Below are positions 54,431-56,527 of a stretch of 64,000 nt of DNA, piece by piece; the first letter of the stretch is position 1, and each line of letters begins with the position of its first letter. Location: positions 12,504 to 76,503 of the IMG/VR virus record IMGVR_UViG_3300009092_000002; one strand, 5' to 3'. A program made the translations under genes and the position numbers. The notes beneath the pieces are model-generated. The model worked only from the letters and a program-made list of their open reading frames with translations. It searched no databases and was not told the origin of the DNA. The DNA comes from a virus (taxonomy: Duplodnaviria; Caudoviricetes).

Positions 54431-54634
54431 TCACGCCACCACCTCCACCGTCACACCCCGCCGCGATTCCGCTTCGGCTCGAATCTCAGGGCCGATACGC
54501 ATTTCGGTCCAGGAATAGGCGAATTCTCTGCCGCAGTCCAAGCACGCAACATACGGGCGACGGCTGCGCTTTGTCGTCAGCGGGAACGTAATCCGCTGGT
54601 GGGTACAGATTCCGAAGATGGATAAAAGCGTCAT
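54431..54634 (-). CDS. Small CxH...CxxC protein of a family typical of Acidobacteriota
   Basis: FGICTHQRITFP...YVACLDCGREFAYSW..MR. Confidence 0.65.
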   Translation of the reverse strand: MTLLSIFGICTHQRITFPLTTKRSRRPYVACLDCGREFAYSWTEMRIGPEIRAEAESRRGVTVEVVA

Positions 54635-54645
54635 CCAATTAAACT

Positions 54646-54698
54646 TCCTTGCGTTGAGTCGCCATGCCACGCTAAGAGATGCGCTGCCCGGTCATGCC
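54646..54698 (-). ncRNA. 5-nt-register array, unit 6 (10 pentamers), downstream of the Cas7-like gene
   Basis: GGC at GAC cg GGC ag CGC at CTC tt AGC gt GGC at GGC ga CTC aa CGC aa GGA. Confidence 0.65.
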
Positions 54699-54701
54699 TG
54701 G

Positions 54702-55292
54702 CTATTTCCATGTCACCTTTTCCACTTTGAAGCGCCCGTAGAAGCCGTTGTTTCGGGGCCGAAATCTGCCGACTCCGATGAAGTTCCCAGCTTCCCGCAA
54801 GTGATACTCGAAGGCGGTAACTTCTTCGTCTGAGTCCGGTACGCTCACCTTTTGCATGAGCGTCTCGTCGAGTACGTAAAAGGTAACATCACCCTCCCAG
54901 TTCTGGATGACTGGGAAGCATTTCTCGACACGTGATCCACCGCCGCGTTTTCCATCTGAAGGGACAAACAGCCACTCGCCGGGAACCTGATCCTTCTTGA
55001 TCGGAAGAACGAGTGCTTCCATCACCAGTACACCAGCTTCGAAGTGCTTCGTGTAAGTCGCTTTCCCCTTGCCAGGGATTTGCATGCTGAGGAACTTGGC
55101 GGCCTCAGACAGGCAGTTTTTAAACGCCATCGGCGGCAAAAACACCGTACCGTCTTCGAGCGAGTGCATCCGATCCCGCCACGTTCTGGCCTCATAGTCT
55201 CTGTGGTTCTCGCCCTTCTTTTTCTCGGTCGTGTAATGTCGCGACTGAGAGTACGGGCTAATCGATTTCAGTGTTACCGTTGCTGTCTTCAT
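54702..55292 (-). CDS. Stand-alone Cas7/RAMP-like protein (Vipr-like RNA-guided effector candidate)
   Basis: N-terminal beta strand TVTLKSISPY; VFLPPMAFKNCL at the RAMP IPGSSxKG position; C-terminal Gly-rich loop AGNFIGVGRFRPRNNGFYGRF; no other cas genes. Confidence 0.78.
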   Translation of the reverse strand: MKTATVTLKSISPYSQSRHYTTEKKKGENHRDYEARTWRDRMHSLEDGTVFLPPMAFKNCLSEAAKFLSMQIPGKGKATYTKHFEAGVLVMEALVLPIKKDQVPGEWLFVPSDGKRGGGSRVEKCFPVIQNWEGDVTFYVLDETLMQKVSVPDSDEEVTAFEYHLREAGNFIGVGRFRPRNNGFYGRFKVEKVTWK

Positions 55293-55296
55293 AAAC

Positions 55297-55672
55297 TCCT
55301 TGCGTTACCTCGCAATGGCCGACCAAGCCCCGCCCGGCTAAGTCAAGCTGAGCCCAACGATGCCGTGCCGAGCGCTGAGATGACATGCTCAGCCCAACCA
55401 AAGATATGAGTGCGAGAATTCCCTGTCTTGCGATACAAAGCCTGATCCCGTCGCGCCTAACCAAGCAGCGCCGCGCCCAGCCACAGCAAAATATGAGTGC
55501 GTCCTTGCCTTGCGCTGGCTTGCCGTGCCGCACGATGCCGAGCCCGGTTAAGTCAGACGAAGCGCTGTCGTGTATCGATCCTCTTCTGATCGGGGCCTTA
55601 CCTTGCCTTGCGCTGCGACGCCACGGCGAGTCGGGCGCAGCCAAGCCGTGACTAATGTTGCCAAGTCGCGTC
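55297..55672 (-). ncRNA. Four tandem 5-nt-register arrays (15, 13, 12 and 20 pentamers): candidate multi-guide RNA
   Basis: GGY-like triplets every 5 nt with variable dinucleotides; units 55595-55672, 55502-55569, 55420-55482, 55297-55399; two CGCACTCATAT linkers and one hairpin linker. Confidence 0.8.
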
Positions 55673-55687
55673 TTGAGAAAAGGTGTG

Positions 55688-55733
55688 CCGGGGTTGCCTA
55701 CCCGGTCCTCGGTCCACCGTAATGGCCGAGAGG
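55688..55733 (-). ncRNA. Two hairpins (UACG and GCAA loops) 5' of the array
   Basis: CCTCTCGGCCAT-TACG-GTGGACCGAGG and CCGGGTAG-GCAA-CCCCGG on the minus strand. Confidence 0.5.
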
Positions 55734-55819
55734 CTAATCCCTGTTCGCTCGCCTGCGTTATGGCAAGAAAGGTCGAAATGACCGAGAAGCCAGTATTAGG
55801 CGTTGAACCAGGGGATAGA

Positions 55820-56314
55820 TCAATCACTAAAAGCCTCCAATGTCTTTGCCAGTGGCAAGCTGGCCTTTGCTTCCGCCACTCGCCCTTCGAGCTTTTTCAT
55901 TCGCGCCGCCGTCGTCGCCATTGAGAGAGCACCGAGCACCGAGGCGTAAGTGTTGTGTCGAATCTTAGAATCGTTTGGCAGGGCGTCAAAATCTCGCACA
56001 GCCGTAATGGTCCGAAAGCCGCGAGTCGAGGCGCGCCGAATTCTCGTCACAGTGTCTTCGCCAGTCGCTACAATCTCAACATCGGAAAGCCGTTTCAATC
56101 CAATATTGCGAACCACGCCGAAGACGATGTAATCCTCACGAAGAGCCTTACGCCGTGCTGTCTGGATTGATCCGCGTCCACCGTTCTGCGTGTCCCTTCC
56201 GATCATCTTCGAGAGTTCCGCATAACTAACGATTTCCTCTACAGCCGATTTCTTCAGTCGGTCGTAGATCATCTTTGAATCAAGAGAGAGCGCTTGGATT
56301 ACTTTGTTCTGCAT
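55820..56314 (-). CDS. Winged-helix-like protein embedded between the arrays
   Basis: IVSYAELSKMIG...I..ARR.......VF..VRNIGLKRL; GAGGA RBS. Confidence 0.7.
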   Translation of the reverse strand: MQNKVIQALSLDSKMIYDRLKKSAVEEIVSYAELSKMIGRDTQNGGRGSIQTARRKALREDYIVFGVVRNIGLKRLSDVEIVATGEDTVTRIRRASTRGFRTITAVRDFDALPNDSKIRHNTYASVLGALSMATTAARMKKLEGRVAEAKASLPLAKTLEAFSD

Positions 56315-56321
56315 ATTAAAT

Positions 56322-56389
56322 TCCTCGCCTTACCGTGCCCAGCCAAGCTTTGCCTCGCCAGGCCCCACGTTGCCGTGACTGACGACGCC
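56322..56389 (-). ncRNA. 5-nt-register array, unit 1 (13 pentamers)
   Basis: GGC gt CGT ca GTC ac GGC aa CGT gg GGC ct GGC ga GGC aa AGC tt GGC tg GGC ac GGT aa GGC ga GGA. Confidence 0.75.
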
Positions 56390-56395
56390 ACTAAA

Positions 56396-56499
56396 GCAAC
56401 CCAGGAAACGTAAAAAGGACCGGGCTTGCGTTCCCGTGCGGCATTACCCGCTACGCCTCCTGGGCTGCTTAAGTCGGGCGGAATCTTGCGACCCCGCCC
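56396..56499 (-). ncRNA. Structured RNA leader (multibranch stem plus GNRA hairpins)
   Basis: GGGCGGGGTC-GCAA-GATTCCGCCC (56476-99); 11-bp stem 56458-68 with 56396-406 enclosing two hairpins. Confidence 0.55.
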
Positions 56500-56527
56500 T
56501 GTGCTAACCGTTGCCCTCCCCCTCCTT

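What the first reader, a model, noticed from the sequence alone, without database searches (positions are those of the whole stretch)
55297..55672. Multi-guide cassette: four arrays delimited by conserved linkers; NN codes read out
Minus strand 5'->3'. Unit A (55672-55595) NN = GC TT AA TA AC TT TG CC TC GT GT AG AA AA AA, then hairpin CGATC-AGAAGAG-GATCG. Unit B (55569-55502) NN = AG TT CT TT CG TC AT GC AC AA AG AA AA. Linker CGCACTCATAT (55491-55501). Unit C (55482-55420) NN = TG GC GC TT TA GC GG CA TT AT AA AG. Same linker (55404-55414). Unit D (55399-55297) NN = TG TG AT AT AG TC AC AT TG TC TT TT CG GG TT CG AT GA AA AA. Flanking unit 56389-56322 NN = GT CA AC AA GG CT GA AA TT TG AC AA GA; unit 54698-54646 NN = AT CG AG AT TT GT AT GA AA AA. 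All six have A-rich NN near the 3' end and five end in GGA, like a conserved 3' handle; the central NN differ, as expected for independent guides. The repeated linker suggests processing into separate RNAs.
Basis: partly seen in the sequence, partly recalled or inferred. Interest (0 to 1): 0.9.

Follow-up and report, generated by a model that had tools for sequence, protein, structure and literature searches.

The report
Phage VIPR guide-RNA cassette
The four five-base-periodic tracts are guide-RNA genes of a phage VIPR system, a CRISPR-like RNA-guided DNA silencer first described in 2026, so the kind is known; the new point is that several guides here seem aimed at the transposase genes of insertion sequences.

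Summary
The reading as a multi-guide cassette is supported. The gene just downstream (54702-55292, minus strand) has a Cas7/RAMP fold, and its best match by sequence among solved structures is the SUSP1 Vipr protein. In 91 of 96 related loci its homologue has same-strand pentamer arrays beside it. A 164-aa winged-helix-like gene (55820-56314) accompanies it in 67 of 96. Arrays in relatives end in the same C-AA-xxC-AA-GG handle. Two loci with 99% identical vipr genes keep every triplet but share only 19% of NN bases. Under the published one-base-skip rule, guide F1 matches an IS1595 transposase motif (22/22) and guide A an IS1-like transposase motif (23/24). Guides C and D match suggestively, guide B matches at chance level, and F2 is too short to search. 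There is no self-target. This is therefore a new member of a known kind (VIPR, 2026 preprints). This scan has found VIPR loci before on other DNA. Expression and processing at the linkers are untested. Transposases are not named as targets in the three VIPR preprints I word-searched.

The parts
56396..56500 (-). Strongly structured leader directly 5' of the first array (two stem-loop domains); role unknown, possibly the 5' end or a stabiliser of the transcript
   Evidence: RNA fold -62.1 kcal/mol, z = -6.3, 0 of 200 shuffles fold as well. No Rfam family matches.
56322..56389 (-). vrRNA unit F1: 14 triplets, 11 informative NN plus an AA-GA handle ending in GGA, which also serves as the ribosome-binding site of the vap-like gene
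   Evidence: NN string confirmed. At one-base skip it matches IS1595 transposase genes at 21-22 of 22 positions.
55820..56314 (-). vap-like accessory gene: 164 aa, N-terminal winged-helix-like domain plus a helical C-terminal part
   Evidence: A homologue lies on the same strand next to vipr in 67 of 96 related loci. AF2 pLDDT 87.6. Foldseek gives only weak matches, to winged-helix regulators (E 0.03-0.4). No Pfam or NCBIfam family matches.
55595..55672 (-). vrRNA unit A: 16 triplets, 12 informative NN plus three AA handle units
   Evidence: Matches an IS1-like DDE transposase gene at 23 of 24 positions, antisense and wobble-phased; the AA units do not match.
55576..55592 (-). Short hairpin (5-bp stem, 7-nt loop) closing unit A
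   Evidence: It is not more stable than shuffled sequence (z = -1.15).
55502..55569 (-). vrRNA unit B: 14 triplets, 11 informative NN plus an AA-AA handle ending in GGA
   Evidence: The best hits in the viral collection (20 of 22) are at chance level and not wobble-phased.
55491..55501 (-). Linker copy 1 (CGCACTCATAT), followed by a T-rich stretch; candidate inter-unit spacer or processing site
   Evidence: One of exactly two copies in the window. Predicted unstructured (z = +1.2).
   Evidence: Ten consecutive NN, including the added GT, match a DDE_Tnp_1 transposase gene, antisense and wobble-phased.
55404..55414 (-). Linker copy 2 (CGCACTCATAT)
   Evidence: Predicted unstructured (z = +1.0).
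55297..55399 (-). vrRNA unit D: 21 triplets; its handle AT-GA-AA-AA and final GGAG overlap the ribosome-binding site of vipr
   Evidence: Thirteen consecutive NN match a ParB-domain N6/N4 DNA methyltransferase gene at 25 of 26 positions, antisense and wobble-phased.
54702..55292 (-). vipr gene: 196-aa minimal RAMP/Cas7-like protein
   Evidence: 3596 homologues. AF2 pLDDT 87.7. Top Foldseek matches are Cas7 of type VII, Csm3 and Cas7-11 (E down to 8e-7). The family profile's best hit in the PDB is 36pp_D, 'SUSP1 Vipr protein' (E 4.6e-4), with aligned G-loops.
54646..54703 (-). vrRNA unit F2: 11-12 triplets with the same AT-GA-AA-AA-GGA ending as unit D
   Evidence: Only 7-9 NN are informative, too few for a collection search.
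54431..54634 (-). 67-aa ORF after F2; unlikely to be part of the system
   Evidence: No homologue in any of the 96 related loci. No family match.

Best explanation
Window 54646-56500 (minus strand) is a complete VIPR locus of a temperate phage. It holds a Vipr protein gene, a winged-helix-like accessory (vap) gene and six vrRNA genes, four of them forming the cassette 55297-55672. By analogy with the published system (inferred here, not shown), each RNA is coated by one Vipr protomer per pentamer. The protein sequesters the GGY-like triplet and presents the two variable bases. The filament then pairs with double-stranded DNA reading two bases and skipping one, and blocks transcription. Each unit consists of a variable guide part, a conserved 3' handle (C-AA-xxC-AA-GG, often followed by T-rich sequence) and a short linker that is repeated within the locus. 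The linker probably separates, or is cut between, the RNAs. The guides are not directed at the phage itself. The best-supported targets are conserved, codon-phased motifs in transposase genes of insertion sequences (IS1595; IS1-like; probably a DDE_Tnp_1 family) and a ParB-methyltransferase gene of other mobile elements.
For: Observation: exact, and far above chance. Protein: Cas7/RAMP fold, and the best solved-structure sequence hit is the SUSP1 Vipr protein, with G-loop GVGRFRPR aligned to SUSP1 GVGDWRPR. The SUSP1 residues W178 and R179 that hold G2 and Y3 (paper 10.64898/2026.04.26.720927) correspond to F177 and R178 here. Linkage: 91 of 96 related loci have same-strand arrays next to vipr, and 67 of 96 also have the 164-aa gene. 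Handle: conserved across loci that use GGC, GAC, CGC or GTC as the constant triplet. NN turnover: in L048 versus L049, vipr is 99.1% identical, triplets 100% and NN 19%. Linkers: repeated within a locus in other multi-unit cassettes as well. Targets at one-base skip: F1 22/22 and 21/22 in about 30 sequence variants that encode (V/I)HTNGLENFW, with variable skip bases; A 23/24; D 25/26 over 13 NN; C 20/20 over 10 NN. All four are phased so that the skipped base is the wobble base, as published. Seed-extension test: A p = 0.0065, F1 p = 0.0058, Fisher over five guides p = 0.0013. No self-target in the 76.5-kb contig, as in the paper. A guide from an unrelated locus of the same Vipr clade (L045) reads a second conserved motif of the same IS1595 genes.
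Against: There is no RNA evidence, so expression, RNA ends and processing are unknown. Similarity to SUSP1 Vipr is remote (E 4.6e-4 over the C-terminal half), and SUSP1 D177 is R176 here. The triplets are more degenerate than published GGY: only the third base is near-invariant. No pseudoknot-like tail is predicted, and the linkers fold no better than shuffles. The handles of three units overlap ribosome-binding sites, which is not mentioned where I searched the first preprint. Target statistics are modest when counted over the whole collection: expected chance sites are F1 0.002-0.04, A 0.009-0.2, D 0.004-0.1, C 0.06-1.1 and B at chance. Guide D reaches only 75% of its informative NN, below the published 80% cut-off.
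Confidence: 0.9

Rival explanations
1. The arrays are cis-acting operators rather than trans-acting guides. The RAMP protein coats the triplet repeats in the 5' leaders of vap, vipr and the next ORF and so controls their translation, as TRAP does on (G/U)AG-NN repeats.
For: Three arrays end in the ribosome-binding sites of downstream ORFs. In relatives the array upstream of vipr ends 5-45 nt before the start codon. This was my own first reading.
Against: It does not explain hypervariable NN beside fixed triplets. It does not explain units A-C, which have no downstream gene, or cassettes of up to ten units in relatives. It does not explain the codon-phased matches to foreign genes. Autoregulation may exist in addition to guide function, not instead of it.
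Confidence: 0.05
2. The locus is a decayed or decoy VIPR array. The RNAs are made but no longer direct silencing, or they serve to titrate Vipr proteins of rival elements, as reported for solo vrRNAs.
For: The triplets are degenerate: 34 of 91 are GGC and the rest are variants. Guide B has no target above chance. Solo and decoy vrRNAs exist (paper 10.64898/2026.10.15.759431).
Against: vipr and vap are intact and conserved. The third triplet base is a pyrimidine in 95% of pentamers. Two guides have near-perfect in-frame matches.
Confidence: 0.04
3. The tracts are coding sequence (ORF 55258-55827) or a meaningless simple repeat.
For: An open frame of 189 codons spans the cassette.
Against: The periodicity is 5, not 3. 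No family matches any ORF over the tracts. GC content is flat across codon positions. The arrays are tightly linked to vipr homologues in 91 of 96 loci.
Confidence: 0.01

Closest known systems
VIPR systems (Vipr + vrRNA + Vap); type II examples are Escherichia phage SUSP1 and a Pseudomonas fulva prophage (bioRxiv 10.64898/2026.04.26.720920, .720927 and 10.64898/2026.10.15.759431; PDB 36pp)
   Same: A small single-RRM RAMP gene of about 200 aa. A second small gene for a predicted DNA-binding protein. Flanking same-strand arrays of pentamers with a constant triplet ending in a pyrimidine and two hypervariable bases. A conserved 3' end on each unit. Phage or prophage location. No self-targets. 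Candidate targets in other mobile elements, read two bases on and one off, with the skipped base at the wobble position and the footprint on conserved enzyme motifs.
   Different: The Vipr protein is only remotely similar to SUSP1 Vipr, and tblastn finds no homologue in 50,697 GenBank phage records. Triplet positions 1-2 are relaxed here, and in relatives they are replaced wholesale (GAC, CGC, GTC). The 3' end is a short AA-AA-GG handle with a U-rich or unstructured linker, not a pseudoknot tail. Units have 12-21 repeats. The gene order here is array-vap-arrays-vipr-array. The handle overlaps ribosome-binding sites. The predicted targets are IS transposases rather than satellites or prophage regulators. 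I could not assign the type (I-VII) because the paper's tables are not held.
Class 1 CRISPR Cas7-crRNA backbone (type III Csm3/Cmr4, type VII Cas7, Cas7-11)
   Same: The fold of the 196-aa protein (Foldseek E 8e-7 to 1e-3). A protein filament on a guide RNA with periodic base flipping.
   Different: There is no CRISPR repeat-spacer array, no cas genes and no second RRM. The period is 5 nt with only 2 read bases, instead of 6 nt with 5 read bases.
TRAP (trp RNA-binding attenuation protein) binding sites: (G/U)AG triplets separated by 2-3 nt
   Same: Triplet-plus-spacer periodicity in 5' leaders that reach the ribosome-binding site.
   Different: The protein fold is unrelated, and the spacers here carry information. 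This is a resemblance in form only, recalled from my own knowledge.

Membership tests
VIPR system | Vipr protein: minimal RAMP with an RRM core, a glycine-rich loop and a thumb | tested here: met
   AF2 model with pLDDT 87.7. Foldseek top hits are all Cas7-type RAMPs. The family profile's best PDB hit is SUSP1 Vipr, E 4.6e-4, aligned through the G-loop. Individual thumb contacts were not checked.
VIPR system | vrRNA genes: tandem pentamers with a constant GGY-like triplet and two variable bases, next to vipr on the same strand | tested here: met
   Six arrays of 12-21 pentamers; the third base is a pyrimidine in 95%. Present in 91 of 96 related loci. Positions 1-2 are less strict than published; the paper also lists related consensus forms.
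VIPR system | NN hypervariable while the triplets are conserved among close relatives | tested here: met
   L048 versus L049: vipr 99.1% identical, triplets 100%, NN 19%. L020 versus L025: vipr 91%, upstream array replaced. No close relative of this very locus could be fetched.
VIPR system | Invariable structured 3' tail after the repeats (a pseudoknot in type II) | tested here: inconclusive
   A conserved handle, C-AA-xxC-AA-GG plus T-rich sequence, is present in all units and in relatives. No stable structure is predicted for the linkers and no Rfam family matches.
VIPR system | Targets obey the one-base-skip rule, lie in foreign mobile elements, and none lies in the element itself | tested here: met
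   F1 22/22 and A 23/24, with D and C suggestive and all four wobble-phased. No self-target at skip 0-2. Other skip rules were not tested on the collections.
VIPR system | Accessory vap gene beside vipr | tested here: met
   The 164-aa gene is conserved beside vipr in 67 of 96 loci. Its model has a winged-helix-like N-terminal domain, with weak matches only. Homology to a published vap1-6 was not testable.
VIPR system | vrRNAs are expressed, bound by Vipr, and silence matching DNA | not testable with these tools
   No RNA run holds the locus, and the laid contigs are uninformative.
CRISPR-Cas | Repeat-spacer array and cas1/cas2 or effector cas genes | tested here: not met
   No direct-repeat array and no cas families among the neighbouring genes. 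Only the Cas7-like fold is shared.

The most novel reading that the evidence does not exclude
This Vipr clade is widespread in metagenomes and in Burkholderia prophages but has no tblastn match in the GenBank phage records searched. It may use its guides largely to silence the transposases of insertion sequences. Guides F1, A and probably C each read a conserved motif of a different transposase family: IS1595 around the catalytic E, IS1-like around the TDG motif, and DDE_Tnp_1. An unrelated locus of the clade (L045) carries a guide against a second motif of the same IS1595 genes. The phage would thereby keep insertion sequences from hopping into it or its lysogen, which would be RNA-guided control of transposons by a virus.
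Probability: 0.45. Interest if true: 0.65.

Novelty: new member of a known kind. Interest (0 to 1): 0.4.

Why it matters
VIPR was described only in 2026, and experiments cover the SUSP1 and P. fulva (type II) systems. This locus adds a distant, very large Vipr clade: 3596 homologues, none found by tblastn in the GenBank phage records searched. It has a clear multi-guide cassette, a different 3' end (a short AA-AA-GG handle and repeated linkers instead of a pseudoknot) and relaxed or swapped constant triplets. All of these bear on how Vipr recognises its RNA and how arrays are cut into units. If the predicted targets hold, they extend VIPR's known prey from satellites and prophages to insertion-sequence transposases. 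The logic is the same as published: read the codon-determining bases of a catalytic motif so that escape mutations break the enzyme. The predicted target sites give ready-made, testable guide-target pairs.

Tried and rejected
My first reading, a TRAP-like leader operator, was dropped once the protein proved to be a Vipr-type RAMP.

Tools and data that gave nothing usable:
The closest relatives (88% Vipr identity, 82% for the 164-aa protein, both on short contigs) could not be fetched, so NN turnover was shown in other branches of the family.
- Rfam gave no family at gathering or E-value thresholds, and no hammerhead. No tRNA was found.
- The promoter/terminator scan showed nothing above shuffles.
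- No RNA holder is listed among sequencing runs. The laid contigs of X2 cover only short pieces of the vipr and vap genes and say nothing about the arrays.
- NCBIfam gave nothing above threshold for the three proteins. The profile of the 164-aa protein gave no relevant PDB sequence hit.
- No complex prediction was run.

Target searches that failed or were weak:
- Guide B 18-nt seed: 0 hits. Its 16-nt seed gave hits at chance level, not codon-phased.
- Guide D 5' seed in metagenomes: 7 hits extending only 1-7 of 20 positions, that is chance. This is useful as a picture of what chance hits look like.
- F1 pattern with up to 3 mismatches in 301 genomes of the phylum of G001: 2 hits against 1 for the reversed control.
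- Other guides do not converge on the short contigs that carry the D target.
- There were no cross-hits of any guide in 1.5 Mb of unrelated loci at any skip.
- Target-bearing contigs are not relatives of this phage, and the phage has no ParB-methyltransferase homologue.

A search for Vipr residues that co-vary with the constant triplet gave only one weak, phylogeny-confounded lead (E106).

Full report
**What is there**

On the minus strand, window 54646-56389 holds six tracts built from five-base units: a GGC-like triplet followed by two variable bases. It also found the two copies of CGCACTCATAT (55501-55491 and 55414-55404, the only two in the window) and the short hairpin after unit A.

A period-5 score peaks more than 6 SD above the window mean, only on this strand and only at these tracts. 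Over 91 pentamers the third base is a pyrimidine in 95%. Bases 1 and 2 are G in 68% and 76%. Bases 4-5 are mixed. No ORF drawn across the tracts matches a protein family, and no Rfam family matches.

The window is part of a 76.5-kb virus record. It carries an integrase, an HNH nuclease, a terminase and a D5-type primase. It was assembled from a rhizosphere metagenome.

**The lead**

My first guess was a TRAP-like operator. Earlier notes of this scan on other genomes pointed to VIPR systems and gave two preprint identifiers. I read those papers and a third and tested the defining features here.

**The protein**

The gene that follows unit D (54702-55292) encodes 196 aa with 3596 homologues. Its AlphaFold model is confident (pLDDT 87.7). 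Its best structural matches are all Cas7-type RAMPs: type VII Cas7, Csm3 and Cas7-11, with E down to 8e-7.

A profile of the family finds, as its best hit among all PDB sequences, chain 36pp_D, named 'SUSP1 Vipr protein' (E 4.6e-4). The alignment runs through the glycine-rich loop, GVGRFRPR here against GVGDWRPR in SUSP1. The aromatic residue and the arginine that hold G2 and the pyrimidine in SUSP1 are kept as F177 and R178. The aspartate that reads G1 is an arginine here. That fits the looser first base of the triplets, but this link is an inference.

**Linkage and family traits**

I fetched 96 loci encoding relatives at 48-72% identity. Of these, 91 have same-strand pentamer arrays directly before and/or after the gene.

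The 164-aa gene between F1 and the cassette has a homologue beside vipr in 67 of the 96, usually downstream and sometimes upstream as here. Its model has a winged-helix-like N-terminal domain, with only weak matches. This agrees with the DNA-binding Vap proteins described for some VIPR types.

The constant triplet differs by locus: GGC in 52 loci, GAC in 14, CGC in 12 and GTC in 2. Yet arrays end alike, with two units whose NN is AA, then GG, then usually T-rich sequence.

In other multi-unit cassettes each unit is again followed by a short linker that repeats within that locus. The repeated linker here is therefore a family trait. The linkers are predicted to be unstructured, unlike the pseudoknot tail of type II.

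**NN turnover**

L048 and L049 have vipr genes that are 99.1% identical. Their upstream arrays keep every GAC triplet and the tail but share 19% of NN bases, which is chance level. L020 and L025 (vipr 91% identical) share the downstream array but have different upstream guides.

**Targets: method**

Following the published rule (NN joined by one free base, either strand), I found no site in the phage's own contig above shuffled guides. I then scanned IMG/VR with 16-base seeds (8 NN) and extended the hits locally.

**Targets: results by guide**

- **F1.** 58 seed hits, about 33 of them in IS1595 transposase genes (PF12762). These match at 21/22, and once at 22/22. They are on the sense strand, with NN at codon positions 1-2, over the motif (V/I)HTNGLENFW. 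The skipped bases vary freely among 30 distinct variants.
- **A.** 23/24 in three contigs and 21/24 in three more. The match is antisense to an IS1-like DDE transposase at QLTTDGHKVYLN and is wobble-phased. The three terminal AA units do not match.
- **C.** The match is antisense to a DDE_Tnp_1 transposase at QNWPAYNAAQ.
- **D.** Thirteen consecutive NN match at 25/26, antisense to a ParB-domain DNA methyltransferase at RNPRKNDHIVD. This is only 75% of all informative NN.
- **B.** Chance level.
- **F2.** Too short to search.

**Targets: statistics**

Seed-extension p-values, corrected for the number of hit families, are 0.0058 for F1, 0.0065 for A, 0.09 for D and 0.39 for each of C and B. Fisher's combined p is 0.0013. 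Counted over the whole collection, expected chance sites are 0.002-0.04 for F1, 0.009-0.2 for A, 0.004-0.1 for the D run and 0.06-1.1 for the C run. Chance hits from a metagenome scan extended only 1-7 of 20 positions.

Two independent checks help.
- Of the 120 nearest homologues of one target transposase, found by protein similarity alone, 72 encode a peptide that the first ten NN of F1 can read.
- I scanned 1,899 ten-NN windows from the relatives' arrays against the target loci. The only non-trivial hit (19/20, about 0.2 expected by chance) is a guide of L045. It reads a second conserved motif (VKVGTIFED) of the same IS1595 genes, in frame.

**How it most likely works**

Shown here: the anatomy, the family linkage, the turnover and the target matches.

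Inferred from the published type II work: Vipr protomers coat each vrRNA one per pentamer, hide the triplet and present the NN. The filament binds double-stranded DNA with one base skipped per two read, and silences transcription. The Vap protein assists.

The third paper shows VIPR immobilising a satellite by reading catalytic-site codons of its recombinase, wobble-aligned. The transposase matches here follow the same logic. However, neither the first nor the third preprint mentions transposases as targets where I word-searched them. I read only the Results of the second preprint and did not search it for these terms.

**Open points**

- There are no RNA data, so the unit ends and the role of the linkers are untested.
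- The VIPR type could not be assigned, because no supplement is held.
- No scrambled-guide or other-skip controls could be run on the collections.
- The host is unknown. The few named homologues of the F1 target are from Verrucomicrobiota, not Acidobacteriota. This is a hint only.

**Verdict**

This is a real, correctly read VIPR multi-guide cassette. It is a new member of a known kind, and this scan has found VIPR loci before on other DNA.

Noticed in passing
window 56396-56500 (-): A 105-nt leader directly 5' of array F1 folds into two very stable stem-loop domains (-62 kcal/mol, z = -6.3). No Rfam family matches. Its role in the VIPR transcript is unknown.
   Followed up: partly
window 56322-56330, 55293-55302, 54635-54650 (-): The GGA(G/A) at the end of the handles of units F1, D and F2 lies 3-11 nt before the start codons of vap, vipr and a 67-aa ORF. 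Vipr bound to its own guide RNA could therefore occlude these ribosome-binding sites. In relatives the array ends 5-45 nt upstream and a separate AGGAG is usual.
   Followed up: partly
L001-L096 (related loci): The constant triplet is locus-specific (GGC 52, GAC 14, CGC 12, GTC 2) while the AA-AA-GG handle is kept. The invariant E106 of the GEW motif is replaced by L or N in about half of the GAC-type loci. This is a weak, phylogeny-confounded lead to a specificity residue.
   Followed up: partly
L045:4260-4330 (+) against L144, L146, L166: A guide of a different VIPR locus of the same Vipr clade matches the IS1595 transposase genes that window guide F1 also hits. The match is 19/20, in frame, at a second conserved motif (VKVGTIFED).
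   Followed up: yes
window 54702-55292 (-): This Vipr clade has 3596 homologues in genomes and metagenomes, including many Burkholderia pseudomallei records. tblastn nevertheless finds no match in 50,697 GenBank phage records.
   Followed up: partly
L136:2374-3369 (+) and its homologues P0141-P0260: The few homologues of the F1 target transposase that carry organism names are all Verrucomicrobiota (Chthoniobacter, Limisphaerales).
   Followed up: no
window 55865-56037: A wastewater run labelled as RNA-Seq holds a 175-nt contig with only 2 differences from the vap-like gene. A close relative of this locus therefore exists outside the source sample. It may be DNA carry-over.
   Followed up: no
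L020-L025 (Burkholderia-type prophage loci), upstream of vipr: Units in these cassettes are separated by a GNRA-capped hairpin plus a conserved GGTGCGAATAGC box. This is a different kind of inter-unit linker from the one in the window.
   Followed up: no
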